From: Bradymonadales bacterium | Lineage (GTDB): Bacteria; Myxococcota_A; Bradymonadia; UBA4248 | Reading direction: 5' to 3' | Assembly (NCBI GenBank): GCA_041656175.1 | Contig: JBBAEA010000002.1 | Coordinates: 3,697 to 67,696, forward strand | DNA length: 64,000 nt | In this document: piece by piece, positions 2,437 through 62,524 of the stretch | Numbering within the stretch: position 1 is the first letter of the stretch | How the letters are laid out: every line of letters starts with the position of its first letter | Notes under the pieces: model-generated | Database searches by the model: none | Told to the model about the DNA's origin: nothing | Seen by the model: the letters and a program-made list of their open reading frames with translations, nothing else | Made by a program: the position numbers and the translations under genes

Positions 2437-2590
2437 TTTTGGGGGGCTCCGCCACCCCTACGCGCGGGCTTCTTCGTAAAATGCACAATTCGCATAAATA
2501 AAATGCGATGTGTGAGCTCAAACCGCTCATCCATCGCATTTTATATGCTCATTGCGCCTTTTACTCAGCGATCCCGCGCTACCCCCCCCT
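2437..2590 (+). repeat. Family-1 structured intergenic element (MITE/REP-like), copy 1a
   Basis: GGGGGG-loop-CCCCCC hairpin, then TACGCGCGGGCTTC, an internal palindrome, and GATCCCGCGCTACCCCCC at the far end. About 90% identical to copy 1j. Confidence 0.8.
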
Positions 2591-4258: not shown

Positions 4259-5368
4259 CTACTTGAATTTAATAAACAATAACAGAGCTAATAAAATAAC
4301 AAGCAGGAACAAAATGGCGGCAATGAGCAGTTTTAATACCTTACCGTGGGAGTTGACAGCAGATTTACTGTGGGCCTCGCTTGGGAGATTTTGGTAGGGC
4401 GAAATGGAGAAGTTCTGGGCAGAACTCGTGGGCGGAGCAGTGTAGGGTGCGGGCGCTTGCGGAATATTAACAGGTGGGGGAGGCGCTTGCTGCGCTTTAG
4501 CCTGTTCGGCGATGGCTTGCCTCCTAGCTAGCTCCTGCTGCTCAGCAATCGAAAGACTGGAAGGCGATGGGTTTGCGGGAGGCATAGGACTGATGGGTGG
4601 CGTAGCGGGTGCAGGCGCTGGTGGAACTTTAGCCATTTGAGGACTGGGGTTGTAAGCAGCCCTAACTTGCGGTGCTTGGCGCGGCGGCTCGAAAGGGTGA
4701 TGTGGGAGCGGTGGCTGTTCGTGGCGAATTTGCGGTTTGGGAGTGGGAACAGATACATGCGGGATAGGCGCGTTTGTGGGAGGCTGTACAGTGGATTTGG
4801 GCGACATCACGGGTGCGTGGCTTTGTGATTCGGGTACGAAATAGTCCACAACAGCCTTGATGTCAGCGGGCATTTGGTAGTTAATGACGCGGGGATCGTC
4901 AATAAAAGCGAAGTAGGACTCTGGAAATTCCTCAAACTCCATCTCCTGCCCATCGTCGCTATAAATACGCGGCGGTTGCACAGGACGCGTTTGGCGCAGC
5001 TCTTCTGTAAAAAGTAAAACCGCTTGCTCCTCGCCTGTATCGGGGTGCGAGTAAGGCGCATAAAAGCTATGAATGAAAGCATCGGAAGCGAAATTCGCAA
5101 CCATATTGGCTTGGTTCACAACAGGTGGCGAGCATTTTAGCAATATGACATGCACACCTAGCGCTAGAATCTGGTTCAACCAATTGACCCAGTCACGTAC
5201 ACCGCAAGAGTTAATGCGCTCAATCTCAGATAATTCAATCAGTAGCAGCCTACCTTGAATTTGTGATAACAAATTAACGAGTAGGTTATCCTCATCTAAA
5301 ATGCCTTGCAATTTTAGGTAAGTGTAACCATTTCCAGCGGTTAGTGTTGGTATAAATTTACGTTGCAT
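4259..5368 (-). CDS. STAS-like N-terminal domain, long Pro-rich linker, C-terminal transmembrane anchor; hypothetical
   Basis: 369 aa. N-terminal ~100 aa resemble an anti-sigma-antagonist STAS fold (GILDEDN..LIELSEIERINSCGVRDW). Then ~200 aa of P/A/Q low complexity. Ends in LLIAAILFLLVILLALLLFIKFK. Confidence 0.5.
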   Translation of the reverse strand: MQRKFIPTLTAGNGYTYLKLQGILDEDNLLVNLLSQIQGRLLLIELSEIERINSCGVRDWVNWLNQILALGVHVILLKCSPPVVNQANMVANFASDAFIHSFYAPYSHPDTGEEQAVLLFTEELRQTRPVQPPRIYSDDGQEMEFEEFPESYFAFIDDPRVINYQMPADIKAVVDYFVPESQSHAPVMSPKSTVQPPTNAPIPHVSVPTPKPQIRHEQPPLPHHPFEPPRQAPQVRAAYNPSPQMAKVPPAPAPATPPISPMPPANPSPSSLSIAEQQELARRQAIAEQAKAQQAPPPPVNIPQAPAPYTAPPTSSAQNFSISPYQNLPSEAHSKSAVNSHGKVLKLLIAAILFLLVILLALLLFIKFK

Positions 5369-12337: not shown

Positions 12338-12490
12338 TTTGGTGGGGGGCACACTGCCCCCCTACGCGCAAGCTTCCCGCAGCATGCGCCTGCAAGCGCA
12401 AAATTTTGTGCATTGTTTCGCCTATTAGGCGAACCAACGCACAAAATGCGCTTTGCGGCCCCTGCTTTGGGCGATCTTGCGCTACCCCCC
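12338..12490 (+). repeat. Family-1 structured element, copy 1c
   Basis: GTGGGGGGCACACTGCCCCCCTACGCGCAAGCTTCC ... GGGCGATCTTGCGCTACCCCCC. Internal palindrome GCGCAAAATTTTGTGC...GCACAAAATGCGC. Confidence 0.8.
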
Positions 12491-12534
12491 ACTGCTTTGT
12501 TGTTCATTTTCTACAACACTGCTAGCAGCCACAT

Positions 12535-13113
12535 TTGCGGTTTTTTTGTAGTTTTTCCCAAAACCTAGGTTTTGCCTTTATGTATCGCTTAGCTATTATT
12601 TTTGCCTCTTTATTGACGATTTCCTGCACGCGCTACTACAGCCTACCCGATGCACCACCTAAAGAAGAGTGGCAGTCACACGCTATAGAAGAGAGCGAAA
12701 ATCCCCAAGAAGTCACCTTGCGACAATTAGAAGCAAAGCGCGCTTCTATCCAAGTTTACTCCGCTCTCCTATCTAAAGACTGGGATAAAGCTCTTTCTTT
12801 AATGAGTGCTGAAACTGTTGCACTTTTTCGCAGTGCTTCACCAAGCGAAGATCCTAAGCTAACACTGGAGTCTGGGGTTTTAGAATTGCGCGGACAAAGT
12901 ATTCCATTTGACCCCGTTGCAGATATATTTATTACAAACCTTAGCGATATTCGGACCGACTTTGGCGAAGAAGTCGCGGATTCCACCAAAACGAGGCAAA
13001 TCCTATTTGCCGTCGATGGCAACAAAAGAGCGCGGAAAATCGCCATGATAAAAGAGGGCGGAATTTGGGTTCTGCATAGCCCGATGATAAAATCGCCCAT
13101 AATCCAAGAGTAA
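12535..13113 (+). CDS. Hypothetical lipoprotein
   Basis: 192 aa. Signal with lipobox LTISC. Confidence 0.5.
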   Translation: MRFFCSFSQNLGFAFMYRLAIIFASLLTISCTRYYSLPDAPPKEEWQSHAIEESENPQEVTLRQLEAKRASIQVYSALLSKDWDKALSLMSAETVALFRSASPSEDPKLTLESGVLELRGQSIPFDPVADIFITNLSDIRTDFGEEVADSTKTRQILFAVDGNKRARKIAMIKEGGIWVLHSPMIKSPIIQE

Positions 13114-13117
13114 GACA

Positions 13118-13726
13118 GTGCTAGTAGATCGATGCTTATTAACGCAAAAAGACGGCTTGTGGGTGGGGCTTACCGAAAGGCTTGTACGCGTAGGTGAGAA
13201 CTTTCGCTTCCTCGCCTGGCTCTCGGCTATTGTGCTACTTCTTGCGATGATTCGCATCCTCGATATTTCTGTCGCACGTATGGGCGCGCTGGACTACATT
13301 AGTGTGGGAATTCCTGCAATTTTTGCGGTTGTTTTTTTTAAAATTTCTTCGCAGCGGCGCAGAATTCGCGAAATAGCCATTAAAATCGAAAAACCGCGCA
13401 AAGTTTTAGATGAAGATCAAAATTTACTAACGCAGGAGCAGTATTTTTACCTTCCCAAAAAAGACGATGCCCTTGGTTTTGAACAATACGATCGTAACGA
13501 TTGCAGCCACGTTGTCTTTGGCCTTATCGACTACAAACCCGAAAACGAGCGTCGCGGCCTTACACTCGAAGCATACGCGCTCTACTTCGCTAGACATGAT
13601 GGTTCGCCGCTTGTGATCGTCGAGAGCTGCTTTGATAAAATGTCTTGCTATAACTTAGGTCGTCGCATCGCTGCCATCACTTCGCTTCCCATCATTGAGC
13701 TCGGTAAGGGCCAGCCCTTTGCGTAG
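13118..13726 (+). CDS. Hypothetical membrane protein
   Basis: 202 aa. Two predicted TM helices. Start 4 bp after the preceding ORF, so probably co-transcribed. Confidence 0.45.
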   Translation: MLVDRCLLTQKDGLWVGLTERLVRVGENFRFLAWLSAIVLLLAMIRILDISVARMGALDYISVGIPAIFAVVFFKISSQRRRIREIAIKIEKPRKVLDEDQNLLTQEQYFYLPKKDDALGFEQYDRNDCSHVVFGLIDYKPENERRGLTLEAYALYFARHDGSPLVIVESCFDKMSCYNLGRRIAAITSLPIIELGKGQPFA

Positions 13727-15113: not shown

Positions 15114-15187
15114 TACGCCCAGCAGGATTCGAACCTGCGACCCACGGCTTAGAAGGCCGTTGCTCTGTCCAACTGAGCTATGGGCGC
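15114..15187 (-). tRNA. tRNA-Arg (anticodon TCT)
   Basis: Reverse complement folds as GCGCCCA..AGCTCAGTTGGACAGAGC..ACGGC-CTTCTAA-GCCGT..GGTTCGAATCC..TGGGCGT with a discriminator A. Confidence 0.85.
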
Positions 15188-15193
15188 ATGTGA

Positions 15194-15267
15194 TCGGGGC
15201 GATAGGATTCGAACCTACGGCTTCCTGCTCCCAAAGCAGGCGCGCTACCAGACTGCGCCACGCCCCG
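15194..15267 (-). tRNA. tRNA-Pro (anticodon TGG)
   Basis: Reverse complement reads CGGGGCG..GCGCAGTCTGGTAGCGC..CCTGC-TTTGGGA-GCAGG..GGTTCGAATCC..CGCCCCG-A. Confidence 0.85.
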
Positions 15268-15332: not shown

Positions 15333-15569
15333 GAGACCTTTGCACGGCTAGAAATTGTGAATTTAATTTTACAAATCCGATACAGTTTTAAACAAAATGA
15401 GACATTTTGTAGAGAAATATACGCTGAAAATGCTAATAAAATAAGGCAGGATGACGATACAATGACATTTTATTCGAAAAGCGCTTAAAAGAGTGTTTTC
15501 TTTGGGGAAGGGGGGAAACATCTTTTCTTTGGCACAAAGAAAAGGGTTTCCCCCCGTGCAAAGCTCTCT
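15333..15569 (+). repeat. Family-3 TIR element (MITE-like), copy 3a
   Basis: Left end GAGACCTTTGCACGG, right end CCGTGCAAAGCTCTC (inverted). Internal GGGGGGAAAC...GTTTCCCCCC hairpin. Confidence 0.75.
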
Positions 15570-15717
15570 AGTTATGTTAAGAGTCAAAAATCTTTCGCGT
15601 CACATGCTGTTTGCTCACACAAAATTATTGGATAAAGCTTAAATACTCGGCTAATATATTGCACGTGGTAAAAGCCTATGCCTTTACTGCTCGAACACGC
15701 ATAAAATAAGGAAAGAC

Positions 15718-17796
15718 ATGAAAAAAATTGCGTTTTATTTATCAATCATGCTTATTGGCGCATTTTCAACGATTAGTTGTAATGATCAAGGTGATAACAA
15801 AAGCTGCGACGACGTTGAGTGTGGAGCTGATGAAATCTGCGAAAAAGGAGAGTGCGTTCCCAATGAAGTAGATCTCTGCAAAGACGTCAGTTGCGATCCT
15901 AACCAGCACTGCGAAAAAGGAGAGTGCGTTCCCAATGAAGTAGATCCCTGCAAAGACGTCAGTTGCAATCCTAATCAGCACTGCGAAAATGGAGAGTGCG
16001 TTCCCAATGAAGTAGATCTTTGTAAAGACGTCAGTTGCGATCCTAACCAGCACTGCGAAAAAGGAGAGTGCGTCGATAATACTGAAAATCCTTGCAAAGA
16101 CGTTAGTTGCGAAAAAGGCCAAAGATGTGTAGGGGGTACGTGCGTCGATAGCTGTACAGGCATTGTTTGTATTGACAATCACATTTGTAAAAACGGTGAG
16201 TGCGTTTTAGATAATGACAAACTTTGTGAGAATGTCACTTGTACGACAGGATTTCATTGTAGTGCGGGCGAGTGCGTAAAGATTGATCCTTGCGATGACG
16301 TATTGTGTGACCCTGGTTTTGTGTGCCAGTTGGGCAACTGCTACGACAAAGCCATCTTCCCTTGTCTCGGTGTAACTTGCCCCGATGATCAGGTCTGCGA
16401 AAGCGGCGTGTGCGTAGTCATAGATGAACACGTTGAATTTGAAGAACCCGTGGGCAATGTTGTACCTAACTGGGATTTTGAAGAGTGGGAGCTTAGTTCG
16501 CCTACTTCATGGCATAGTTTTGGAATAGAGGTCGTTGTTAGTAAAAATACAAGTAATCCAAAATCAAAATTGGCTGCCGTTAACATTAATAATCCGCTCA
16601 AAAATAACGCAAGACTAGAGTCTATCCCATTGACGCTTGATGTAGGGAAGTATTATTGCTCTGCTTGGCTTAAAGGCGAAGGCACGGTTTTATTGGGTGC
16701 ACGCCTATCTGATACCGATAATCCTTCGAAGGGAAAATACAAATATAACTCAGAGACAGTATTAAATGGAAGTGGCCCTTATAAAGAGGTCTTCTTTAAT
16801 TTTACTGTCGATGCGACCATTCAAAAGGTAACGATTCTCATTACCGTAAAGAACACGAGCGGAATGAATGTTAACGTTGATGCCATTTCTTGTGTTCGTG
16901 CCGCTGGAAATTGTGACAACGTAACTTGCAAAGAATGGGAAGAATGCCGAGAATATGATGGTAGCTGTCGACCAAAAATAAGTCGCTGTAATACGGCAGA
17001 TGACTGCAGCGAGTGGCAGACTTGTGACGCCAACCATTATTGTGTACTCGCCGAGGGGCGCTGCAAAAGTACAGTGGATTGTGATGAAAATAGTGATAAG
17101 CCAAAATGTGATGTCAAAACCAAAATTTGTGTTGCTGGCGATCCTTGTGAAGGGGTAACGTGCGACGAGTGGAAAACGTGTCAACGCGCATCTGGCTTGT
17201 GTGTACTCGATGAAAATCGCTGTATTACATCAAAGGATTGCCTCAAAGATAAACCTGCATGCGATGTTACGACGCACACTTGTCAGGACTCTACACACGA
17301 TTGTAACATCTTCCCCAACGGTGGTTTCGAAAAATGGGATGACTATTATATACCGTATCACGGCGATAATTACCTTCCCGATTTTTGGTATGGTTTATTT
17401 GATCATCTATGGGACAATAAATACAACTCGGAAATTGATCCCAAAAATATTAAGCAGTACACGACGTCCGTGCACTCTGGGAATTATGCCATGCAAATCA
17501 TTTTCACAGAGTTTGTAGCAGATCGCTTAGCTTCCGATGAATTTGATATTCCACCAGGTGCGTATACATGCTCTTATTGGGTTCGAGGTAAAGGGACGTT
17601 ACGTCACCGCAGCTATTCTTCAGGTGGCGAATCTCCGTACACGGACTTTTACCAAATTGATACCGATAAGTGGCAACGTGTAGAATTTAATGCGCCTGGC
17701 AATGTTCGAGAATTTAGACTTATCCTGTACGTTAGCCAAACTGATGCGAGTAAAGATCACGTACAGATCGACGACGTTGTCTGCACTAAAAACTAA
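15718..17796 (+). CDS. Secreted lipoprotein with tandem Cys-rich modules and two beta-sandwich (CBM/galactose-binding-like) domains; hypothetical
   Basis: 692 aa. Signal with lipobox ISC. Four or more copies of CKDVSC(D/N)PNQHCE(K/N)GECVPNEVD, followed by further C-x-C modules. Confidence 0.65.
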   Translation: MKKIAFYLSIMLIGAFSTISCNDQGDNKSCDDVECGADEICEKGECVPNEVDLCKDVSCDPNQHCEKGECVPNEVDPCKDVSCNPNQHCENGECVPNEVDLCKDVSCDPNQHCEKGECVDNTENPCKDVSCEKGQRCVGGTCVDSCTGIVCIDNHICKNGECVLDNDKLCENVTCTTGFHCSAGECVKIDPCDDVLCDPGFVCQLGNCYDKAIFPCLGVTCPDDQVCESGVCVVIDEHVEFEEPVGNVVPNWDFEEWELSSPTSWHSFGIEVVVSKNTSNPKSKLAAVNINNPLKNNARLESIPLTLDVGKYYCSAWLKGEGTVLLGARLSDTDNPSKGKYKYNSETVLNGSGPYKEVFFNFTVDATIQKVTILITVKNTSGMNVNVDAISCVRAAGNCDNVTCKEWEECREYDGSCRPKISRCNTADDCSEWQTCDANHYCVLAEGRCKSTVDCDENSDKPKCDVKTKICVAGDPCEGVTCDEWKTCQRASGLCVLDENRCITSKDCLKDKPACDVTTHTCQDSTHDCNIFPNGGFEKWDDYYIPYHGDNYLPDFWYGLFDHLWDNKYNSEIDPKNIKQYTTSVHSGNYAMQIIFTEFVADRLASDEFDIPPGAYTCSYWVRGKGTLRHRSYSSGGESPYTDFYQIDTDKWQRVEFNAPGNVREFRLILYVSQTDASKDHVQIDDVVCTKN
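15805..16080 (+). repeat. In-frame 66-bp tandem repeat (about 4 units) inside the Cys-rich lipoprotein gene
   Basis: gatctctgcaaagacgtcagttgcgatcctaaccagcactgcgaaaaaggagagtgcgttcccaatgaagta recurs with fewer than 5 mismatches. Confidence 0.8.
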
Positions 17797-17917: not shown

Positions 17918-19276
17918 ATGCAAGTTATAGTCATCGGTGTTGGATATGTGGGTCTCAATACTGCAGCAGCCCTAGCTTACTTAGGACATGACGTTCTTGG
18001 TATTGATAACGATGCGAAGAAAGTCGCCATGTTACAAAATCGCCGACCACCCATTAGCGAAGAGGGCTTAGAGGAACTTTTGGCTCTCGACCTCAAACTC
18101 AAATTTAGCCAAGAACTCGCCGTTGGCCTTGATAATGCCGACGTCATCTTTATCGCGGTTGGCACGCCATCGCGCGAGGATGGAAGTGCTAATATTGACT
18201 ACGTATACGACGCTGCCCGAGAACTAGGTCAAAAGCTCAAACCCAGTAAAGATCAGTGCATTGTGCTAAAATCCACCGTCCCCATCGGCGTCAATGAGCA
18301 TGTCGAGTCGCTGATACGAAAAGCCGTTGTGGAACGTGGATATGACGATGCCCTGCTGCACTTTGCCTCTAGCCCCGAGTTTTTGCGCGAAGGCAGAGCA
18401 TTGTCGGATACCTTTTACCCCGATCGCATCTTAATCGGCACCGATGATGATTATGCCTTCAATATTTTGGAAAAACTCTACAAACGGATTATTTCACGAG
18501 ATTTCGCGCATCCGTCGTTTTTGGAAGCTCTCAAAGAACTGCCCAATAGCCAAATAATTCGCAGCGATCGCGTGTCAGCTGAAATGATAAAATACGCCTC
18601 AAACGCGTTTTTAGCGCTAAAGATTAGTTTTATCAATGAAATTTCCGTTCTTTGTGAGGCGCTAGGCGCTGATGTGAACGATGTAAGTAAGGGTATGGGC
18701 CTAGATCGACGCATTGCTCCCTACTTCCTTAAAGCTGGTTTAGGCTGGGGTGGTTCTTGCTTCCCCAAAGACACGCTTGCCCTCATGAGTATGGCGGAGG
18801 ATTACGGTATTGAGCTCCCATTGATCGAAGGAGCACGGCGAGTAAATGAAGAACAACTCACGCGTGTGGTGCGCAAGGTGCAGGCTGAATTAAAGACCTT
18901 AGCGGGTAAGAAAATTGCCGTTTTGGGTATCAGTTTTAAGCCTCTAACCGATGATGTACGAAACAGCCCTGCTGTAGATTTGGCCATGCAATTACGCGAT
19001 TTGGGTGCAGACGTTTTTATGCACGATCCCGTTGGTGTGAGCAATGCGCGCGCCGTATACGGCGATACGGGCTTACACTTTTGCGATAGCGTTCAAGAGC
19101 TCTGCACTGACTCCGTTTGCAGCATACTCGCCACCGACTGGAACGAATACCGCAGACTCGATTTTGCCGACTTAGCTAAGCGTACGAAGCAGCCCATTAT
19201 GGTCGATGCGAGAAATTTTTTGGATCGCGACACCGTCGAAGAGAGCGGTTGGTACTACCTCGGGTTTGGGCGCTAA
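17918..19276 (+). CDS. ugd: UDP-glucose 6-dehydrogenase (UDP-glucose/GDP-mannose dehydrogenase family)
   Basis: MQVIVIGVGYVGL Rossmann N-terminus. GLGWGGSCFPKD catalytic Cys motif. About 452 aa from the internal Met. Confidence 0.85.
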   Translation: MQVIVIGVGYVGLNTAAALAYLGHDVLGIDNDAKKVAMLQNRRPPISEEGLEELLALDLKLKFSQELAVGLDNADVIFIAVGTPSREDGSANIDYVYDAARELGQKLKPSKDQCIVLKSTVPIGVNEHVESLIRKAVVERGYDDALLHFASSPEFLREGRALSDTFYPDRILIGTDDDYAFNILEKLYKRIISRDFAHPSFLEALKELPNSQIIRSDRVSAEMIKYASNAFLALKISFINEISVLCEALGADVNDVSKGMGLDRRIAPYFLKAGLGWGGSCFPKDTLALMSMAEDYGIELPLIEGARRVNEEQLTRVVRKVQAELKTLAGKKIAVLGISFKPLTDDVRNSPAVDLAMQLRDLGADVFMHDPVGVSNARAVYGDTGLHFCDSVQELCTDSVCSILATDWNEYRRLDFADLAKRTKQPIMVDARNFLDRDTVEESGWYYLGFGR

Positions 19277-19421
19277 GATTGCTTTGATTTATGGGGGCTA
19301 GCGCCCCACTCAGCATGCTGAACTGATTATTTTATTCGATGATGCCGATGAGCGAACTTTATCGTTGCCCAAGCACAGCGCTCTTTTGGCGCCGTGCTGA
19401 GGAAGAACCTTGCTGCTAGCA

Positions 19422-20806
19422 CTACAGATCCGTGATCCGTCCTAAAAATATCAGCGCCTTGGATTTGGTGTCGACAATGGCAAAGAGGAAGGGTCTATCG
19501 ACAATAAATTTGATGATTTCGCGAGCTTTTTCAATATCGCTCTTAGCGGTTCGCGGTTTATTGAGCACAACGGCGGTGGCCGCCGCCGCTTCGGCGCCAG
19601 CTTCATCAATTTCGACAAAGGCTTTATGAAAGATGTTACTGATGTAGAGCTCTTTTTTTCCAGTCATGCCGCTAAAAATCGGCGGCAGCATCCGAGAATG
19701 CCAATAGTGCGCCAAGTGTCTCAAGCATTCCTTTGCCATCAACCTTCAATTCTTGGCGAAACTTTGGCAAAGCCAGTTTCACGAAGCGCATTTGCTTCCT
19801 ATTGAGCATCATGCGGAAGTCTTCAGCCTTTAGCTCATCTTCGAGGTTTGCGAGTGCATAGCCCTCATTCGGTAGAACAAGCAACATGGACAGTGGAGAA
19901 TTCTTGTAGTAAAGGGTAAGTGCCTTGTAGTTCCTCCCAATAAAGACTTCCATGTTGTCGAGCCTGTGCATGGTCGGAACCTTTTTTTTGTTGCGCAGAC
20001 CTTTGAAGCTCTCGTTGCGGGTCTCTGACTTCTTAAACGGTATCTCCCACGGTGCTTTGAGGTAGATCGCGTTGACCAAAACCATGCGTGTGTATTCATC
20101 AATACTTCCGCTAGGCAAGAGACCTTGGATTTTGTTACTCGTCTTTTCGGCCACCCAACGATTGATCTTTTGGCGACTAGGCTCTGGGGCAGCTTCGAAA
20201 TCAAGGGGTTCAATGGCGATGCGGTAGTTTGCTTTGAGTCCCTCCATGAATTCAGGCAAAAAGGAGTAGCGTTTGGCGGGATAAATCTTATTGGCAATGC
20301 GCAGCAGAACCCCCTTAGCGGGTGCATCAAAGATACTTTTTTCAATCTGGAGACTAAGCGCATCCCTGTTGGCGCTATCCCGCTCAAAACCCATGGTTGT
20401 TAAGCAGTTCTGCGCGTGTCTCTCCCCGAGCTCCCGTAATCGTCATGCCCATGGCACGCTCAAAGGAATAGGGCGAGAAGACGACATTTTTCCCTGCGGG
20501 AAAAGTCTTAAGCGCTTGCCAAGCAAAGCGATTATTGGCATCAACCCACTCATCGATAGAGCCATCAAGCAAATGAGCTTCAGCCGAAGGCTCCTCAACA
20601 GCCTGCTGAGCTACGTCGTCTTTGTCTTTTTCCTCTACTTCTTCTTTTACTTCGTCTTTGGCTGCTCCCTGTGCAGAATCAATGGAATTATTGCCGGTTG
20701 CAGGCTGTTCTGCCTTGGGTTGGCAGGCAAAAAACCATAGAGAACACAAAAGGGATAAGCACAAAATGAAATAGTATCGCTGCATATTCACTCCTAAAGC
20801 TAGCAC
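19422..20806 (-). pseudogene. Serpin (serine protease inhibitor) lipoprotein gene split into three overlapping frames by two frameshifts
   Basis: ORFs 20384..20806, 19672..20394 and 19422..19742 together give a full serpin. There is a signal/lipobox N-terminus, the hinge EIDEAGAEAAAATAV and the C-terminus FLFAIVD...LFLGRITDL. Frame breaks lie at a T4 run (~20390) and a T5 run (~19693). Confidence 0.6.
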
Positions 20807-20928
20807 ACAAAACCGTCGATTAATGATCGCCTATTGATTGCGTTGTAGTCCAGTAGTAACGCCTTAGCCAAATTGTCGATTGGGATGGCGCATTTAGCGA
20901 CGTGTTTTGCACTTATGGCTTCCAGCTT

Positions 20929-21076
20929 TGGGGGTAGCGCGGGATCGCTGAGCAAAAGACGCTACAAGCGCACAAAATGCGATGGATGCGCGATTAGCAA
21001 ATACATCGCATTTTGTATTGCGCTTGTTGTCGAATTTTGCGAAGAAGCCCGCGCGTAGGGGGCTGCGCCCCCACAA
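20929..21076 (-). repeat. Family-1 structured element, copy 1d (inverted)
   Basis: GGGGGTAGCGCGGGATCGCTGAGC...CGCGCGTAGGGGGCTGCGCCCCCAC. Confidence 0.8.
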
Positions 21077-21204
21077 AAAAATGAAAATGATGCCACCGCT
21101 AATTTCTATTGTAGCAAAACCTTGTACAAGGGCTAAGGATTTCATACAATCGTGGTGTTTTTCGGATGCCGTGGAGGCGTTCTGCTATACAATATAATGA
21201 GGTC

Positions 21205-22332
21205 AAGATGGCTGGACTTTCGCTTAAAAAGATCGTGAAGCGCTATGGGAATCAGGAACCTACGCTGCGGGGGATTGATTTAGAGATTCGTGATGGGGAG
21301 TTTTTGGTGCTGGTAGGGCCGAGTGGTTGTGGCAAGTCGACGCTGCTGCGTACGATTGCGGGGCTGGAGTCGATTACGGATGGGGAGCTGCGGATTGGGG
21401 AGCGCGTGGTCAATCAGGTTGCGCCTAAGGATCGCGATATTGCGATGGTGTTTCAGAGCTATGCGCTGTATCCGCATATGACAATTCGGCGCAATATGAG
21501 TTTTGGCTTGGAGGTGCGGCGCGAACCGAAGGAAAAGATTGAGGCGCTTGTGAATGATGCCGCGCAGATGCTGGGCTTGGTGGAGCATTTGGACAAGTTG
21601 CCCAAGATGCTTTCGGGGGGGCAGCGACAGCGAGTGGCGATGGGACGGGCGATTGTGCGCCGGCCAAAAGCGTTTCTTTTTGATGAGCCCTTGAGCAATC
21701 TTGATGCGGCGCTGCGAACGCAAATGCGCGTTGAAATTAGGCGCTTGCATCGCAAGCTTAAAACGACAATTATTTACGTAACGCATGATCAAATCGAGGC
21801 GATGACGCTGGCGGATCGTATCGCGGTTTTGGAGGGGGGGCATTTGCAGCAGGTGGGAACGCCGCTTGAGCTATTTTTAACGCCAAATAATAAGTTCGTT
21901 GCGGGTTTCATTGGAAGCCCGGCGATGAATTTTGTGCCAGCGACGGTTTTTGTTAAAGAGCAACGCGCCTTTGTTCGTATCAATGCGAAGTCTTCTATTG
22001 AACTCGGGGAATCTGTAGCGAGCAAGGTCGAGGATGATCAAGATGTTATTTTGGGCATTCGCCCGCAAGATGTGGTGTTGGGCAACGAAACGCACCCTGT
22101 AAATTTGTATGTCAAGGTCGATGTTGTTGAAACTCTAGGTTGGGAGAGCCATGTGCACTTTAGGCTAGGGGATGCGCCGTTTTTGGCGGTGCTGGAGGCG
22201 CAGTCGGCCGCAGCGTTTAAGGTCGATGAGGAGATTGGTCTGCACGTCCCGACTTCGGCGGTTCACTTGTTTAACACCGAAACCCACGTCGCGATTGCTC
22301 ATGGAGACGTGGCTGAGCCAGAGGATGCGTAA
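21205..22332 (+). CDS. Sugar ABC transporter ATP-binding protein (MalK/UgpC type)
   Basis: Walker A GPSGCGKST. LSGGQRQR signature. Walker B LFDEPLSNLD. C-terminal TOBE-like regulatory domain. Confidence 0.85.
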   Translation, partial: KMAGLSLKKIVKRYGNQEPTLRGIDLEIRDGEFLVLVGPSGCGKSTLLRTIAGLESITDGELRIGERVVNQVAPKDRDIAMVFQSYALYPHMTIRRNMSFGLEVRREPKEKIEALVNDAAQMLGLVEHLDKLPKMLSGGQRQRVAMGRAIVRRPKAFLFDEPLSNLDAALRTQMRVEIRRLHRKLKTTIIYVTHDQIEAMTLADRIAVLEGGHLQQVGTPLELFLTPNNKFVAGFIGSPAMNFVPATVFVKEQRAFVRINAKSSIELGESVASKVEDDQDVILGIRPQDVVLGNETHPVNLYVKVDVVETLGWESHVHFRLGDAPFLAVLEAQSAAAFKVDEEIGLHVPTSAVHLFNTETHVAIAHGDVAEPEDA

Positions 22333-22376: not shown

Positions 22377-24956
22377 GTGATAATGACGAGTAAACGATAC
22401 GCATTATTTGAATTTGCCCCATCGTTTCGCGTGGGTACTTCGATATTTTTGATATGGCTGTTTAGCCTTTGTTTTGGATTTTTTGGCTGCGACGCAGCTA
22501 CGCCAGAGCCAGGCGAGGAACAGGGCGAGGATTTGCAGCGCGTGAGTGCGAAGGGGGCGGCCGATGTGACACTTTGGCACGCCTACCGCGGCGACGAACA
22601 GCTTGCGCTTGATGGCGCTGTTGAAGAGTTCCGAAAACTGCACCCCACATGGAAAATCGACGTTTTACCAGTCGCTGATGAGTCCTATGCCAATAAGCTC
22701 TTTACGGCGATTCCGCGGGGAAGCGGGCCCGACGTGTTTATTGCCGCCCATGACAATATTGGCTCCTGGGCCAACAACCAAATCATTGCCGATGTCGACG
22801 CGTATTTTGGCGCCGATGAACGCAAACTCTTCCACCCCCTAACGGTAGATGCGCTGCTCTATCAGCGAGAGTTGACGACGGCTGAGCGCGAACAACGAGG
22901 GCAAAAACTCGATGAAGAGCGCATTTATGCCATGCCTTTGGCCTATAAGAGCCCTGTACTATTTTACAATAAAGATCTTGTTTCTACGCCACCAAGCGAT
23001 ACGAACGAGCTTTACGCGATCATGCAAAAGCTCACCGATACGGTGTCGCAGCGCTACGGCTTTGTGTATGAGAACACGAATCTCTTCTTTCACGCGGCGT
23101 GGTTAAACGGTTTTGGTGGCACCTTATTTAATGAGGCGGGCAATGTCGAGATTGCCACCGAAAACAACGCGGCGAGCTTTGAGTTCGCGGCTAAACTCAA
23201 CGCGTACATGCCCGCTGGCGTGGATGGTGCGCGAATAGGTAAGCTCTTTAATGATGGCACGGCTGCGATGGTTATTAGTGGTCCGTGGTTTATGGCGGAA
23301 CTGCGAGAAGATCTCAACTACGGTGTAGCGACGATGCCGCTCATCAACGAGTCTGGAAACTTTGCTGCACCCTTTGTAACGGCTGAGGGAATATTTTTAT
23401 CAAAATACGCCAAAGACAAAAAATCGACGGAGCAAATTCAAAAATCTGTCGAGCTCATGCAATTTATCGCGAAAGATTCTGCGTATCGCCGACTAATCGA
23501 CGGCAAGCAGATGGTTGCCTACCTCGACGCCTACGAGCAACTCAAAGGCGATAACGACGAAAAGGCCGCTTTCATGAAAAGCGTGGCACCGACGTTTTTG
23601 GCACAGCTTGAGCATGCCTACCCCACAAGTTCTCGCCCTGAGATGGGTTCGTTGTGGGCTAGCATGCGCCAGGCGCTGCAAAAATCTTTGTTCGGCGGAC
23701 CCTCGGGCGAAACGCCATATTGGTTGTTTTTGCTCATTTCGGTCTTTGTAGCCGCTCTACTTCTTTTGTCTAAGGCGACAAACCCGAGTCTAAACACCAA
23801 GCGAAGTCAACAATTATACGTTGCGGGTTCTATCCTATCGTTTGTGGCGCTCATTCCCATTATTTGGCGCATCGCGTCTATTCAAGGAGTGAACCGCCAG
23901 GTCGAACCGATGAAGGCGTTGATGGAAGCGCAAAATCGTTTCTTGCAACTCAAAGCGCCAGCGATGGAGGCGGCAAACCCTGGTCCCTTCCTGGCCGTCG
24001 TTTGCGGAATTTTGCTCATCATCATGATCCTCAGCATCAAAGCGTATAAGCGCCACAAGGCCAAAAACATCGAATACACGGATAACAAAGTGGCGGCTGC
24101 TTTCGTGGCACCAGCCATCATCGGCATGATCGTTTTGGTTATTACGCCCTTTACCGTGGGTGCTGCGCTATCCTTTTTTAGCTACCAAAACGGCGAGTTT
24201 ATTTTCGTGGGTGCCCAAAACTTCGTGCGGCTATTTTCGACGCAACAGGCATCATTTACAGATTCGCTCTCGTTTTACTTCACGCTTGTGGTTACCGTTT
24301 TGTGGACGGTGGTGAACGTTTCATTGCACGTTTGCTTCGGTATTATATTGGCACTGCTACTACGCGATCCTTGGCTGAAACTCAAAGGGATGTACCGTGT
24401 ATTATTCATCATTCCGTGGGCAATGCCGAACTATATTACGGCGCTTATTTGGCGCGGCATGTTTGATACGTCGTTTGGCGCTATCAACGGAATTTTAGTT
24501 TCGCTTGGCCTAAACCGCGTCGAGTGGTTTAACGAGTTTTTAACCTCGTTTTCTGCCAACCTTATTACCAACACTTGGCTGGGCTTCCCCTTCATGATGG
24601 TGGTAACGTTGGGCGCGCTACAAGCGATCCCCCGAGATCTCGAAGATGCCGCCTCCGTCGACGGTGCAAACGCCATACAGCGCTTCCGAAACGTCACCTT
24701 CCCGCTGCTCAAACCAGCGCTTATGCCCGCGGTTATTTTGGGCTCGGTTTGGACCTTCAACGCCTTTAACATCATTTACTTAGTGAGCATGGGAAACCCC
24801 GATGGCTCAACCGAAATATTGGTTTCCGAGGCGTATAAGTGGGCCTTTGAGCGCCAGTTCCAATACGGTTACGCTGCCGCCTACGCCATGGTCGTATTCT
24901 TTATCCTAGTCGTATACTCTAAGTTGACGCAACTCGTTTTGGAGGACAAACAATGA
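22377..24956 (+). CDS. Fusion protein: periplasmic sugar-binding lipoprotein (SBP family 1, MalE-like) joined to a MalF-type ABC permease
   Basis: 859 aa. Lipobox FFGC. About 440 aa of SBP fold (WHAY..DVFIAAHDNIGSW). Then 6 or more TM segments carrying the EAA loop EDAASVDGANAIQRFRNVTFP. Confidence 0.75.
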   Translation: MIMTSKRYALFEFAPSFRVGTSIFLIWLFSLCFGFFGCDAATPEPGEEQGEDLQRVSAKGAADVTLWHAYRGDEQLALDGAVEEFRKLHPTWKIDVLPVADESYANKLFTAIPRGSGPDVFIAAHDNIGSWANNQIIADVDAYFGADERKLFHPLTVDALLYQRELTTAEREQRGQKLDEERIYAMPLAYKSPVLFYNKDLVSTPPSDTNELYAIMQKLTDTVSQRYGFVYENTNLFFHAAWLNGFGGTLFNEAGNVEIATENNAASFEFAAKLNAYMPAGVDGARIGKLFNDGTAAMVISGPWFMAELREDLNYGVATMPLINESGNFAAPFVTAEGIFLSKYAKDKKSTEQIQKSVELMQFIAKDSAYRRLIDGKQMVAYLDAYEQLKGDNDEKAAFMKSVAPTFLAQLEHAYPTSSRPEMGSLWASMRQALQKSLFGGPSGETPYWLFLLISVFVAALLLLSKATNPSLNTKRSQQLYVAGSILSFVALIPIIWRIASIQGVNRQVEPMKALMEAQNRFLQLKAPAMEAANPGPFLAVVCGILLIIMILSIKAYKRHKAKNIEYTDNKVAAAFVAPAIIGMIVLVITPFTVGAALSFFSYQNGEFIFVGAQNFVRLFSTQQASFTDSLSFYFTLVVTVLWTVVNVSLHVCFGIILALLLRDPWLKLKGMYRVLFIIPWAMPNYITALIWRGMFDTSFGAINGILVSLGLNRVEWFNEFLTSFSANLITNTWLGFPFMMVVTLGALQAIPRDLEDAASVDGANAIQRFRNVTFPLLKPALMPAVILGSVWTFNAFNIIYLVSMGNPDGSTEILVSEAYKWAFERQFQYGYAAAYAMVVFFILVVYSKLTQLVLEDKQ

Positions 24957-25877: not shown

Positions 25878-26031
25878 TTGTGGGGGGCTAAAGCCCCCCT
25901 ACGCGCGGGCTTCTTCGCAAAATTCGACAATTCGCGCATCATTTTGTGCAACGTTTCGACTATTCGTCGAACCATTGCACAAAATGCGCTCATTGCGCCT
26001 TTTGCTCAGCGATCCCGCGCTACCCCCCCCC
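25878..26031 (+). repeat. Family-1 structured element, copy 1e
   Basis: TTGTGGGGGGCTAAAGCCCCCCTACGCGCGGGCTTCTTCG ... GATCCCGCGCTACCCCCCCC. Confidence 0.8.
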
Positions 26032-26087
26032 AGCTTTAACGCAAAACACCATGCTCCCCCATGCAAAGCGTGAGACCTTTGCACGGC

Positions 26088-26500
26088 CTTTCGTGTTTTT
26101 CGTGGTAAAAATGCTGTTCGTGGCATTCGTGGTTCATAATTTAAAGACACGAAAGGCACGGAAGACCATAACAAATCAAGCTGGTTCTGAAAGAATAAAA
26201 AATCTTCTCGTGTGTTTTCGAGTTTTTCGTGGTTCATAATTTAAAGACACGAAAGGCACGAAAGACCATAACAAATCAAGCTGGTTCTGTAAGAATAAAA
26301 AACTTTTCGTGTGTTTTCGTGTTTTTCGTGGTTCAAAATTTAAAGACACGAAAGGCACGAAAGACCATAACAAATCAAGCTGGTTCTGTAAGAATAAAAA
26401 ACTTTTCGTGTGTTTTCGTGTTTTTCGTGGCAAAAAAATCTTTTCGTGTGTTTTCGTGTTTTTCGTGGTAAAAAAGCTTTCGTGGTAAAAAATCTGTTCG
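26088..26500 (+). repeat. Tandem array A: 3 units of about 100 bp plus 2-3 units of about 38 bp. Each long unit is an imperfect hairpin built from CACGAAA/TTTCGTG heptamers
   Basis: Unit starts at 26126, 26226 and 26325 are near-identical. TTTCGTGG(C/T)AAAAAA recurs. Directly preceded by an orphan family-3 left TIR, GAGACCTTTGCACGGC at 26072-26087. Confidence 0.85.
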
Positions 26501-38824: not shown

Positions 38825-39221
38825 CTTTCGTGTCTTTAAATTTTTAACCACGAAAGCCACGAAAACACACGAAAAGTTTTTTATTCTTAGATGTCCAGCT
38901 TGATATGTAATAATCTTTCGTGCCTTTTGTGTCTTTAAATTTTTAACCACGAAAGCCACGAAAACACACGAAAAGTTTTTTATTCTTAGATGTCCAGCTT
39001 GATATGTAATAATCTTTCGTGTATTTCGTGGCAAAAAAAAAGCTTTCGAGCCTTTCGTGTATTTCGTGGCAAAAAAAAGCTTTCGAGCCTTTCGTGTATT
39101 TCGTGGTAAAAAAGCTTTCGAGCCTTTTGTGTATTTCGTGGCAAAAAAAGCTTTCGCGCCTTTCGTGTATTTCGTGGTAAAAAAGCTTTCGAGCCTTTTG
39201 TGTATTTCGTGGCAAAAAAAG
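38825..39221 (-). repeat. Tandem array B: 2 units of about 100 bp plus 6 units of about 37 bp. Reverse-complement, diverged relative of array A
   Basis: Units at 38835 and 38934 are near-identical. Then six copies of CGTGTATTTCGTGG(C/T)AAAAAAAGCTTTCGAGCCTTT. About 85% identical to the array-A unit on the opposite strand. Confidence 0.85.
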
Positions 39222-40796: not shown

Positions 40797-41032
40797 CCTT
40801 TGCAAGGCTAGTAATAATGAATTTTATTTTATAAATTCTATACAGTTTAAAACAAAATGAGACATTTTGTAGAGAAGCATAAGTTAATAGTGCTAATCAT
40901 ATAAGACAGGTAGAAGATAGAATGACATTTTATTTGAAAATTGCTTAAAAGAGTGTTTTTTTTGGGGAGGGGGGGCGAGGGGAAGCTTTTTGCTTTTGCA
41001 AAAAGAAAAAAGCTTCCCCCCGCGCAAAGCTC
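40797..41032 (+). repeat. Family-3 TIR element, copy 3b
   Basis: CCTTTGCAAGGCTAG...ACAAAATGAGACATTTTGTAGAGAA...GCTTAAAAGAGTG...GGAAGCTTTTTGCTTTTGCAAAAAGAAAAAAGCTTCC...GCGCAAAGCTC. Confidence 0.7.
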
Positions 41033-41092
41033 AAAAACTGGCAATTTCCCAAAAAACGACTGTGCGCCTTAAAACTCTACAGCGCAAAACGC

Positions 41093-42635: not shown

Positions 42636-42781
42636 TTGTGGGGGAGCGCCCCCTACGCGCGGGCTTCCTCGTAAATATCACAATTCGCGCCTTATTTTGT
42701 GCGCTGTATCGGCTATTCGCCAACCCAGCGCACAAAATGCGCTCATGGTGCTATTTCCTCGGCGATCCCGCGCTACCCCCC
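42636..42781 (+). repeat. Family-1 structured element, copy 1g
   Basis: TTTGTGGGGGAGCGCCCCCTACGCGCGGGCTTCCTCG...GGCGATCCCGCGCTACCCCCC. Followed by TTAAGGAAACTCTGATATATG and an inverted family-4 terminal fragment at 42803-42835. Confidence 0.8.
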
Positions 42782-42902
42782 TGCGCCCTTAAGGAAACTC
42801 TGATATATGGGGGCTACCGCCCAAAACCCCGCTTCGTTTTGTGGGGCGCTGCTAAGGCTATCGCCCTTAGAACCCTTTTTTTGTGTAGCGTCTTGAATTT
42901 CT

Positions 42903-45044: not shown

Positions 45045-45117
45045 TGGCTAGGGACGGAATTGAACCGCCGACACGAGGATTTTCAGTCCTCTGCTCTACC
45101 TACTGAGCTACCTAGCC
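45045..45117 (-). tRNA. tRNA-Phe (anticodon GAA), copy 1
   Basis: Reverse complement reads GGCTAGG-TA-GCTCAGTAGGTAGAGC-A-GAGGA-CTGAAAA-TCCTC-GTGTC-GGCGG-TTCAATT-CCGTC-CCTAGCC-A. Confidence 0.85.
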
Positions 45118-45132
45118 CTAGGGCGAAACAAA

Positions 45133-45205
45133 TGGCTAGGGACGGAATTGAACCGCCGACACGAGGATTTTCAGTCCTCTGCTCTACCTACTGAGCTACC
45201 TAGCC
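45133..45205 (-). tRNA. tRNA-Phe (anticodon GAA), copy 2
   Basis: Identical 73-nt sequence 88 bp downstream of copy 1. Confidence 0.85.
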
Positions 45206-49854: not shown

Positions 49855-49883
49855 GGTGCTACTTTAGTTTATGCGAATAAATT

Positions 49884-50036
49884 GAGGGGGAGCGCAAGAT
49901 CACCCAAAAAAGTCGCCTATTGCCGCACGCTGTGCGAAGGCCGAGCGTATAGCGAGGACTTTGCACGGCGTAAAGCGGCAATTGGCGAATTTTGAGGGAA
50001 GCTTGCGCGCGGGGGAGTAATCCCCCGCCTTCCCCA
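49884..50036 (-). repeat. Family-1 structured element, copy 1h (inverted)
   Basis: GAGGGGGAGCGCAAGATCACC...GAGGGAAGCTTGCGCGCGGGGGAGTAATCCCCCGCC. Confidence 0.8.
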
Positions 50037-53062: not shown

Positions 53063-53388
53063 GAGACCTTTGCACGGCTAGAAATAACGAATTTAATTTT
53101 ACAAATTCGATACAGCCTTAAACAAAATGAGACATTTTGTAGAGAGATATAAGCTAAAATGCTAATAAAATAAGGCAAGGCGAAGGTAAAATGACGTTTT
53201 ATTCGAAAAGCGCTTAAAAGAGTGCTTTCTTTTTAGTGCCACAGCCGTCCAGGCTGTGGCCGCTTCGCGCGCGGCCTCAGCCGCGACCAATCGCTGACAT
53301 CCATGTCGCGATTGAAGGGGAGGGGGGTACGGGGGGAACCTTTTTTCTTTTGCAAAAAGAAAAAAGGTTCCCCCCGCGCAAAGCTCTC
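53063..53388 (+). repeat. Family-3 TIR element, copy 3c, with a 100-bp internal insertion
   Basis: GAGACCTTTGCACGGCTAGAAATAACGAATTTAATTTTACAAAT......GGAACCTTTTTTCTTTTGCAAAAAGAAAAAAGGTTCC..GCGCAAAGCTCTC. Extra GC-rich hairpin GCCACAGCCGTCCAGGCTGTGGC. Confidence 0.75.
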
Positions 53389-53391
53389 AAG

Positions 53392-55423: not shown

Positions 55424-55450
55424 AGACCGCAACTAAACCAATAACAGCAA

Positions 55451-62519: not shown

Positions 62520-62524
62520 GCACT

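What the first reader, a model, noticed from the sequence alone, without database searches (positions are those of the whole stretch)
19422..20806. Bacterial serpin lipoprotein gene interrupted by two single-base frameshifts at T homopolymers
Three overlapping ORFs in different frames reconstruct a complete serpin. It has a signal and lipobox, a core and the reactive-centre-loop hinge EIDEAGAEAAAATAV. The C-terminus reads FLFAIVD..LFLGRITDL. The frame changes map to a T4 run near 20390 and a T5 run near 19693. This is either a recent pseudogene, a pair of homopolymer sequencing errors, or slippage-based phase variation. Serpins are uncommon in bacteria and often horizontally acquired.
Basis: partly seen in the sequence, partly recalled or inferred. 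Interest (0 to 1): 0.55.

Follow-up and report, generated by a model that had tools for sequence, protein, structure and literature searches.

The report
Decaying serpin pseudogene in Bradymonadales
This is a real but broken gene for a lipid-anchored protease inhibitor (serpin) in an uncultured predatory-type bacterium: it carries two genuine one-base insertions, not sequencing errors, and is an ordinary young pseudogene.

Summary
The three minus-strand ORFs at 19422-20806 do rebuild a complete serpin. After removing two bases it matches Pfam Serpin end to end (E 2.9e-95), with a lipoprotein signal and an inhibitory-type hinge.

The organism is an uncultured Bradymonadales (Myxococcota) MAG.

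- **Lesion A** is not in the T4 run. It is an extra C at 20399. A 99.5%-identical strain and an ~85%-identical relative both lack it and read LLK(T/S)MGFE in frame.

Sequencing error is excluded. Identical lesions appear in four records built by different assemblers, longer runs in the gene (A8, A7) are in frame, and the window shows no indels against short-read contigs over 18 kb.

Phase variation finds no support: the run is T5 in all six records covering it, and no intact allele is on record.

The decay is stepwise. Lesion B is shared by all strains, lesion A occurs in one sublineage, and the relative keeps only the first 191 codons.

The best reading is a recent pseudogene. A low-level +1 "shifty stop" rescue cannot be excluded but lacks stimulators and conservation. 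Interest is low.

The parts
19422..20785 (-). Whole serpin lipoprotein pseudogene, from ATG 20785-20783 to TAG 19424-19422. It is 1364 nt, or 1362 nt (453 codons) once the two extra bases are removed.
   Evidence: the repaired translation matches PF00079 at positions 2-369/370, E 2.9e-95; it aligns end to end with intact 423-447-aa homologues.
20791..20795 (-). Shine-Dalgarno-like AGGAG, 5 nt upstream of the ATG. It makes ATG 20785 the likely real start rather than the mechanical GTG at 20806.
   Evidence: Direct reading. Conserved in L004 and L007. All gene callers start the 133-aa fragment at this ATG.
20723..20785 (-). Signal peptide with lipobox (MQRYYFILCLSLLCSLWFFA|C, Cys21).
   Evidence: Pattern match. 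The Cys sits where seven of the eight aligned homologues have their [AGS]-C.
20561..20722 (-). Low-complexity acidic linker between the lipid anchor and the serpin core. It contains a 24-bp (8-codon, EKDKDDVA) tandem-duplication polymorphism at about 20609-20632.
   Evidence: L004 carries an extra in-frame 24-bp copy. L007 has a different in-frame length.
20399..20399 (-). Lesion A: a derived single-base insertion (extra C). CTT AAA ACC ATG GGT TTT GAG becomes CTT AAC AAC CAT GGG TTT TGA.
   Evidence: L004 (99.5% identical) and L007 (about 85% identical) both lack this C and read LLKTMGFE / LLKSMGFE in frame.
20384..20389 (-). T4 run (20389-20386) plus the premature TGA (20386-20384) where the frame shifted by lesion A terminates. 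This is not the mutated site. It is also a coincidental UUU_UGA 'shifty stop' arrangement.
   Evidence: The same GGTTTTGAG is present and in frame in L004 and L007.
19674..19678 (-). Lesion B: a T5 run with one T too many. GCC GAT TTT TAG CGG replaces GCC GAT TTT AGC GGC (ADFSG).
   Evidence: The conserved ADFSGMTG motif lies in homologues on both sides of the shift. T5 is present in every record covering the site.
19672..19674 (-). Premature TAG created by lesion B. It forms the UUU_UAG_C arrangement.
19506..19604 (-). Reactive-centre loop. The hinge is E394-A-G-A-E-A-A-A-A-T-A-V, followed by VLNKPRTAKSDIEKAREIIKF. The loop carries 4-6 more residues than the eight aligned homologues on its C-terminal side. 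By position counting from the hinge, P1 is near K-P-R.
   Evidence: Alignments (invariant E394, G396, E398, A399-A402, T403). The P1 assignment is an inference from counting.
20803..20836 (-). Hypervariable patch immediately upstream of the RBS. It has 10 substitutions and 1 indel in 34 nt between two strains that show no substitution anywhere in the 1.36-kb gene body.
   Evidence: L007 differs again in this patch.
20930..21062 (.). Copy of a dispersed intergenic repeat family, located in the serpin/ABC divergent intergenic region.
   Evidence: I4, I7, I8. A member of the same repeat group follows the truncated serpin in L007 at 4631-4774.

Best explanation
The locus is a recently inactivated gene (a pseudogene) for a lipoprotein-type, probably inhibitory, serpin. 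It sits in an uncultured Bradymonadales (Myxococcota) lineage.

**What is shown**
- A T was inserted into a TTTT run inside the conserved ADFSG motif. This creates an immediate TAG at codon 371 and cuts off the reactive-centre loop and strands s1C/s4B/s5B. Without these a serpin cannot fold or inhibit.
- In the sublineage that includes the window, a C was also inserted at codon 129. Translation now stops after 133 residues.
- In a related contig the 3' 60% of the gene has been lost altogether.

**What is inferred**
- The order of events: lesion B came before lesion A.
- The original function: a surface or periplasm-anchored inhibitor of trypsin-like serine proteases.
- Decay is recent. The three reading-frame segments still have no internal stops, and every family-invariant residue is kept.
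For: 1. **The lesions are real.**
   - The two-lesion sequence is identical in the window, ENA ERZ27247346 (megahit), NCBI GCA_964449095.1 and Logan SRR8449813.
   - The window has zero indels against these records over about 18 kb.
2. **The decay is stepwise.**
   - JGI 3300060803 and Logan SRR31066172 carry lesion B only, giving 378-aa and 89/81-aa products.
   - L004 and L007 both lack the extra C at 20399, so lesion A is derived.
3. **A related contig has independently lost most of the gene.** L007 keeps only codons 1-191 (77% aa identity). It then continues into unrelated sequence, with different flanking genes.
4. **No intact allele is on record.**
   - The 90%-identity clusters of the fragments contain only fragments among about 15 billion proteins.
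   - In the exhaustive search of 1.84 billion representatives, the only hit above 44% identity is the fragment itself.
5. **Constraint is relaxed only here.**
   - Over 21 kb of window versus L004 there are 7 indel events. Three are in or next to the serpin and four are in an intergenic repeat array. None is in another gene.
   - In the neighbouring SBP-permease fusion gene, the run of substitutions at 22643-22727 is spaced in multiples of three.
   - dN/dS between the window and L007 is 0.47.
6. **The rest of the window looks normal.**
   - The other adjacent ORF pairs I scanned against Pfam that had matches are separate, complete genes. Three of the eight ORFs scanned had no match.
   - ORFs cover 84% of the window.
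Against: - The gene is otherwise perfectly preserved. There are no extra stops, and all invariant serpin columns are kept. This is also what a still-used, recoded gene would look like.
- Both premature stops follow UUU_U. A +1 slip at each would restore the serpin frame downstream: exactly at lesion B, and with KT replaced by NNH at lesion A.
- No outgroup covers the C-terminal part, so T4 as the ancestral state at lesion B rests only on alignment with relatives of 44% identity or less.
- All records are consensus assemblies, so minority intact alleles would be invisible.
- L007 could in principle be a chimeric contig.
- dN/dS of 0.47 is elevated but not neutral, and I could not calibrate it against other genes of the same species pair.
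Confidence: 0.85

Rival explanations
1. Translational rescue by +1 ribosomal frameshifting at 'shifty stops'. Peptidyl-tRNA-Phe on UUU re-pairs with the overlapping UUU when the A site holds a slowly decoded stop. This would happen at GAU_UUU_UAG_C (lesion B) and, in the window strain, also at GGG_UUU_UGA_G. Some full-length serpin would still be made, either as a programmed device or as adventitious leakiness.
For: - Both sites have the exact P-site UUU_U plus 0-frame stop geometry. The +1 product reads ...ADF-SGMTG... at lesion B and ...HGF-ERDS... at lesion A.
- The downstream frames are fully open and keep every invariant residue.
- Shifty stops are a documented shift-prone arrangement (PMC3082878; PMC5009743).
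Against: - The geometry follows automatically from the ancestral sequence. TTT AGC plus one T gives TTT TAG. GGT TTT GAG is already present in frame in L004 and L007.
- There is no Shine-Dalgarno-like stimulator within a few nucleotides upstream of either site (direct reading).
- Rfam finds nothing in the region.
- Unstimulated shifty stops give about 2% or less in E. coli; that figure is for CCC_UGA (PMC3082878). Two in series would give well under 0.1%.
- Lesion A is not conserved even between 99.5%-identical strains.
- Every homologue listed is an ordinary single serpin ORF or a multi-domain protein. None shows the 3-piece fragmentation seen here.
- A related contig has discarded most of the gene.
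Confidence: 0.07
2. Phase variation: slipped-strand mispairing at the T run reversibly switches the serpin ON (T4) and OFF (T5) within populations.
For: Lesion B lies in a mononucleotide run, and a change of one unit restores the frame.
Against: - The tract has only 5 units. Known contingency tracts are usually 7-8 or more (my own knowledge).
- The tract is T5 in all six records covering it, drawn from at least two strain types.
- No ON-length protein exists in the 15-billion-protein collection.
- Longer runs in the same gene (A8 at 19989-19982, A7 at 19659-19653) do not vary.
- Lesion A is not in a tract, so the window strain would stay OFF regardless.
Confidence: 0.03
3. Assembly or sequencing artefact: the gene is intact in the cell and the two extra bases are homopolymer errors.
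For: One of the two sites is a short homopolymer. The window's own sequencing platform is unknown.
Against: - The identical sequence was recovered by separate assemblies and pipelines: megahit k141 contigs, an NCBI TPA MAG and Logan contigs.
- Lesion A is not in a homopolymer. It also segregates cleanly between two strain types, together with a linked 24-bp indel.
- There are no other indels between the window and the short-read contigs.
- The A8 and A7 runs are in frame.
Confidence: 0.02

Closest known systems
Intact Bradymonadales serpins P0001 / P0002 (NCBI 'MAG: serpin family protein [Bradymonadales bacterium]', 433 and 435 aa)
   Same: - Same order-level taxon.
- Same architecture: signal peptide with lipobox Cys, a variable linker, then a full serpin core.
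- Shared local motifs (FSPYSFERA.GMT, ARGETRA..L..(L/M)GF, FIVD.PFLFAIV).
   Different: - Only 41-44% identical.
- They are uninterrupted ORFs.
- The window gene has two frameshifts and a longer C-terminal side of the reactive-centre loop.
Miropin of Tannerella forsythia, a bacterial serpin described as a surface lipoprotein
   Same: A bacterial serpin carrying a lipoprotein-type signal. I recall miropin's lipoprotein status from memory and did not re-read the papers listed. Same Pfam family.
   Different: - It comes from a different phylum (Bacteroidota).
- It is functional and biochemically characterised.
- Homology to the window gene is only family-level; PDB serpin hits, including 5ncs at E 4e-40, appear. 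That 5ncs is miropin is from my memory and was not verified here.
- The present gene is broken.
prfB (release factor 2) programmed +1 frameshift, CUU_UGA_C with an upstream Shine-Dalgarno stimulator
   Same: The geometry is the same: a slippery P-site codon ending in UU, followed by U of an in-frame stop, with the +1 frame encoding the rest of the protein.
   Different: - There is no SD-like stimulator.
- The site is not conserved among relatives, and one of the two sites is only a strain-level polymorphism.
- There is no autoregulatory logic for a serpin.
Homopolymer contingency loci (phase-variable surface-protein genes of Neisseria, Haemophilus, Campylobacter)
   Same: A surface-protein gene whose frame depends on the length of a mononucleotide run.
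   Different: - The run has only 5 units.
- No length polymorphism is observed.
- A second lesion lies outside any tract.

Membership tests
Serpin superfamily (Pfam PF00079) | Full-length match to the serpin fold profile | tested here: met
   The repaired translation scores 320 bits, E 2.9e-95, over model positions 2-369/370. The best PDB hits are MENT 2dut (3e-64) and SERPINB3 (1e-63).
Serpin superfamily (Pfam PF00079) | Inhibitory-type hinge: Glu at P17, Gly at P15, small residues at P12-P9 | tested here: met
   E394, G396, E398, A399-A402 and T403 fall in invariant columns. P14 is Ala instead of the usual Thr/Ser.
Serpin superfamily (Pfam PF00079) | A single uninterrupted ORF able to yield the whole fold, including the RCL and C-terminal strands | tested here: not met
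   There are two +1 insertions. Stops occur after codon 133 and at codon 371. The same holds in three other records.
Serpin superfamily (Pfam PF00079) | Protease-inhibitory activity | not testable with these tools
   This needs biochemistry on a repaired, expressed protein.
Bacterial lipoprotein (lipobox / signal peptidase II substrate) | N-terminal basic residue, a hydrophobic stretch, then [LIVMF..]-[..]-[AGS]-Cys | tested here: met
   A regex of PROSITE PS51257 type (written from memory) matches residues 1-21 with Cys21. Seven of the eight aligned homologues carry the Cys at the aligned position. No dedicated predictor such as LipoP or SignalP was available.
Pseudogene (non-functional gene relic) | Frame-disrupting lesions that are real, i.e. 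reproducible in independent data | tested here: met
Pseudogene (non-functional gene relic) | Further independent inactivating events in close relatives | tested here: met
   Lesion A occurs in one sublineage only. The L007 copy is truncated after codon 191.
Pseudogene (non-functional gene relic) | Relaxed selection compared with neighbouring genes | tested here: inconclusive
   dN/dS is 0.47 against L007, but I could not calibrate it. The only within-gene indels in 21 kb of strain comparison are in the serpin, which is supportive.
Programmed +1 ribosomal frameshifting (prfB-like shifty stop) | Slippery P-site codon followed by a 0-frame stop, with the +1 frame continuing the protein | tested here: met
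   GAU_UUU_UAG_C and GGG_UUU_UGA_G.
Programmed +1 ribosomal frameshifting (prfB-like shifty stop) | Stimulatory element, such as an SD-like sequence about 3 nt upstream | tested here: not met
   No GGAGG/AGGA-like sequence lies within 15 nt upstream of either site (direct reading). Rfam finds nothing.
Programmed +1 ribosomal frameshifting (prfB-like shifty stop) | Conservation of the frameshift site across diverged orthologues | tested here: not met
   Site A is absent from L004 and L007. For site B, only strains of 99.5% identity or more cover it. Every more distant homologue listed is a single serpin ORF or a multi-domain protein, not a fragmented copy.
Phase-variable homopolymer locus | Long tract with length polymorphism among strains or reads | tested here: not met
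   The tract is T5 and invariant in all six records covering it. Read-level data are not available.

The most novel reading that the evidence does not exclude
The UUU_UAG stop created by the T insertion acts as a natural 'shifty stop'. In strains carrying only this lesion (the L004 type), a few percent of ribosomes slip +1 and still make a full-length lipoprotein serpin. On this reading the gene is a down-tuned, translationally leaky allele rather than a dead one. The second lesion in the window strain then marks its final loss.
Probability: 0.07. Interest if true: 0.4.

Novelty: new member of a known kind. Interest (0 to 1): 0.13.

Why it matters
The result has little wider significance.

- **Annotation.** The three (or two) 'serpin family protein' entries deposited for these MAGs are fragments of one pseudogene and should be annotated as such.
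- **Biology.** The locus documents stepwise loss of a lipoprotein serpin within one uncultured Bradymonadales lineage.
- **Method.** It is a caution about inferring lesion sites from ORF overlaps. The place where two ORFs overlap is where the shifted frame happens to stop, not necessarily where the mutation lies.

Only if the leaky +1 frameshift reading were true would the locus add a natural example of an indel compensated by a shifty stop.

Tried and rejected
- **Serpin scan of genome contigs.** Using the repaired serpin, 43 pattern matches were found but none was confirmed. No species representative carries a close orthologue.
- **Synteny search.** I queried the neighbouring 857-aa SBP-permease fusion protein and obtained 80 loci, mostly labelled Myxococcota or related (at most 68% identity). 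None has a serpin within 10 kb. The locus context is therefore not conserved, and this gave no outgroup for lesion B.
- **Metagenome scan.** It gave one close relative, L007, which is truncated, plus serpins of only 35-39% identity.
- **First exact look-up.** The ABC ATPase from the mechanical ORF start failed. It worked from the true start.
- **Rfam.** The gathering-threshold scan of the whole window found only four tRNAs. The permissive scan of 19200-21300 found nothing.
- **Promoter and terminator scan.** Counts were at chance level, and no sigma-70-like site lies upstream of the serpin.
- **Literature.** No paper mentions both Bradymonadales and serpin.
- **Composition-based test for horizontal transfer.** The serpin's GC and GC3 are indistinguishable from those of its neighbours.
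- **T3 repair of lesion A.** I rejected my own first repair, which shortened T4 to T3 and gave NNHGFE, once the L004 and L007 comparison showed the extra base is the C at 20399.

Full report
**1. What is in the sequence**

On the minus strand of 19422-20806 there are three overlapping ORFs in three different frames: 140 aa, 240 aa and 106 aa. Reading the strand directly and translating all frames shows two frame changes.
- The first ORF ends at ...ELLNNHGF-TGA (stop at 20386-20384).
- The second ORF ends at ...AFSDAAADF-TAG (stop at 19674-19672).
- The third ORF runs to ...FLGRITDL-TAG (stop at 19424-19422).

Removing one base at each junction gives a single ORF of 453 codons.
- It starts at ATG 20785, which has an AGGAG 5 nt upstream. 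This is the start used by all gene callers for the 133-aa fragment. The GTG at 20806 is only the mechanical ORF start.
- The repaired protein matches Pfam Serpin (PF00079) over model positions 2-369 of 370, with 320 bits and E 2.9e-95.
- It aligns over 355-372 residues with solved serpins: MENT 2dut at 3e-64 and SERPINB3 2zv6 at 1e-63.
- It aligns end to end with intact bacterial serpins of 423-447 aa and keeps every column that is invariant among them. These include the hinge E394-x-G396-x-E398-AAAA-T403 and D429-x-PF-x-F.
- Residues 1-21 (MQRYYFILCLSLLCSLWFFAC) fit a lipoprotein signal/lipobox pattern. The Cys sits where seven of the eight aligned homologues have their [AGS]-C.

**2. Where the lesions really are**

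Lesion B sits inside the conserved ADFSGMTG motif.
- The D (GAT) is read in the middle frame, and the S-G (AGC GGC) in the last frame.
- The five T's at 19678-19674 lie between them where three are needed, so the extra base is within this T5 run.

Lesion A is not in the T4 run.
- A 99.5%-identical strain (L004, JGI 3300060803) differs from the window by lacking one C at 20399. It reads CTT AAA ACC ATG GGT TTT GAG = LKTMGFE in frame.
- A more distant relative (L007, about 85% nt identity) has the same frame and reads LKSMGFEK.
- The window's CTTAA[C]AACC therefore carries a derived single-C insertion at a non-homopolymer position.
- The T4 run (20389-20386) is only where the shifted frame hits its first stop.

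**3. Source organism and independent copies**

Exact look-ups of neighbouring proteins and of the fragments found the same locus in several public records.
- The sources name the fragments 'MAG: serpin family protein [Bradymonadales bacterium]' and '[Bradymonadia bacterium]'.
- The two-lesion form is identical in the window, ENA ERZ27247346 (a megahit contig), NCBI GCA_964449095.1 and a Logan contig of SRR8449813.
- A one-lesion form, with T5 only and a linked 24-bp in-frame duplication in the acidic linker, is found in JGI 3300060803 and Logan SRR31066172.
- I could not check whether some of these records derive from the same physical sample. They are, however, separate assemblies made by different pipelines.

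**4. Sequencing error is excluded**

- The window shows no indels against the short-read contigs over about 18 kb.
- Lesion A is not in a homopolymer.
- The much longer runs within the same gene are all in frame: A8 at 19989-19982, A7 at 19659-19653, plus T6 and A6.
- Five of the eight adjacent ORFs I scanned against Pfam are separate, complete genes (Mur ligase, sigma-54 activator, aldehyde dehydrogenase, formyltransferase, isoamylase). The other three had no Pfam match.
- ORFs cover 84% of the window.

**5. Phase variation finds no support**

- The tract has only five units.
- It is T5 in every record covering it, across both strain types.
- The 90%-identity clusters containing the fragments hold only fragments, out of about 15 billion proteins.
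- In the exhaustive search of 1.84 billion representatives, the only hit above 44% identity to the middle fragment is the fragment itself.
- No ON allele is therefore on record. Minority alleles within samples cannot be excluded without reads.

**6. Evidence for progressive decay**

- Lesion B is shared by all strains. Lesion A is confined to one sublineage.
- The related contig L007 keeps only codons 1-191 (77% aa identity).
  - It then runs into unrelated sequence and a dispersed repeat.
  - Its neighbours are different: metH upstream, and a 420-aa ORF and a 203-aa ORF downstream that look by eye like trigger factor and ClpP (not scanned against any family library).
- dN/dS between the window lineage and L007 over 187 codons is 0.47. 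This is high for a bacterial gene, but I could not calibrate it against other genes of the same pair.
- In a 21-kb comparison of the window with L004 there are 44 substitutions and 7 indel events.
  - Three indels are in or just upstream of the serpin. Four are in an intergenic repeat array. None is in any other gene.
  - In the neighbouring SBP-permease fusion gene, the run of substitutions at 22643-22727 is spaced in multiples of three.
- A 34-nt patch just upstream of the serpin RBS (20803-20836) carries 10 substitutions and one indel between the two strains, while the 1.36-kb gene body has no substitution at all.

**7. The recoding rival**

Both premature stops are preceded by UUU with a fourth U: GAU_UUU_UAG_C and GGG_UUU_UGA_G. 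This is the geometry of a 'shifty stop', as defined in PMC3082878 and reviewed in PMC5009743. A +1 slip would yield the native sequence at lesion B, and NNHGF-ERDS in place of KTMGF-ERDS at lesion A.

I rate this low, for five reasons.
- The geometry is an automatic by-product of the ancestral sequence. TTT AGC plus one T gives TTT TAG. GGT TTT GAG is present in frame in L004 and L007.
- Neither site has an SD-like stimulator (direct reading). Rfam finds nothing.
- Unstimulated shifty stops are reported at about 2% or less in E. coli, for CCC_UGA (PMC3082878). Two in series would give negligible product.
- Every more distant homologue listed is an ordinary single serpin ORF or a multi-domain protein.
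- A related contig has lost most of the gene.

A low, adventitious level of full-length product in one-lesion strains remains possible.

**8. Context and origin**

- The serpin lies between a UDP-glucose 6-dehydrogenase gene and a divergently transcribed sugar-type ABC transporter operon.
- None of 80 loci (mostly labelled Myxococcota or related) around the homologous ABC fusion gene has a serpin within 10 kb. The position is therefore lineage-specific.
- Serpin GC (0.481) and GC3 (0.529) equal the window's gene means of 0.492 and 0.518.
- The nearest intact relatives are Bradymonadales serpins at 44% identity.
- There is thus no compositional sign of recent foreign origin.

**9. Verdict**

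One of the two lesions was mis-located. This is a new but ordinary example of a known kind, a frameshifted bacterial serpin gene in decay, and interest is low.

Noticed in passing
window 26089-26484 and 38826-39211: Two intergenic arrays are densely packed with the heptamer TTTCGTG/CACGAAA, 18 copies each. The window holds 45 copies against 12.6 +/- 3.2 expected. The arrays are built of 99-nt and 35-38-nt tandem units. They are partly inverted copies of each other (190 nt, 86% complementary) and bracket a 12.4-kb gene block. Strain L004 has 18-nt and 64-nt indels in the first array. They could be iteron-like protein-binding arrays or the boundaries of a mobile or invertible segment.
   Followed up: partly
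window 2485-2589, 12382-12506, 20930-21062, 25895-26044, 42673-42797, 49883-50026, 55278-55424, 60704-60808, 62524-62667; L007 4631-4774: A family of dispersed intergenic repeats of about 105-145 nt (62-92% identity) occurs in both orientations. One copy sits in the serpin/ABC intergenic region. Another lies about 70 nt after the point where the serpin homology breaks off in L007. This suggests repeat-mediated rearrangement (an inference).
   Followed up: partly
window 15337-15573, 40797-41039, 53067-53393: A second dispersed repeat of about 180-240 nt ends in a G-run/C-run hairpin (GGGGGGAA...TTCCCCCC) and lies downstream of genes. It is also present in L007 (6992-7309, 89% identity). It looks like a REP/MITE-like or terminator-bearing element.
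   Followed up: no
window 20803-20836: A 34-nt patch immediately upstream of the serpin ribosome-binding site carries 10 substitutions and 1 indel between two strains that are otherwise 99.5% identical. Those strains have no substitution in the adjacent 1.36-kb gene. L007 differs again in the same patch. It may be a recombination patch or a decaying promoter-proximal region.
   Followed up: partly
window 15837-16112, within the 692-aa gene at 15718-17796: A coding 72-nt (24-aa, Cys-rich) tandem repeat of 3.8 copies lies in a protein with a faint CBM_4_9 match. Copy number differs between assemblies (692 vs 668 aa), and most window-versus-ENA mismatches fall here.
   Followed up: no
window 52342-52626, within the gene at 51207-52745 (minus strand): A 57-nt tandem repeat of 4.5 copies (94% matches) lies near the 5' end of a 512-aa ORF.
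   Followed up: no
window 22383-24956: An 857-aa protein fuses an extracellular solute-binding domain (SBP_bac_1/8) to an ABC permease domain (BPD_transp_1). Hundreds of MAG and genome contigs, mostly labelled Myxococcota or deltaproteobacteria, hold homologues at 52-68% identity over their best-matching segment.
   Followed up: partly
window 45045-45205 and 15114-15267: There are two pairs of adjacent tRNA genes. The pair at 45045-45117 and 45133-45205 is a near-perfect 88-nt tandem duplication.
   Followed up: no
window 12535-13113 and 13118-13726: Two adjacent same-strand ORFs without Pfam matches (192 or 177 aa, and 202 aa) lie 4 nt apart in different frames. I did not test whether they are one split gene. 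They are called identically in L004 and L005.
   Followed up: no
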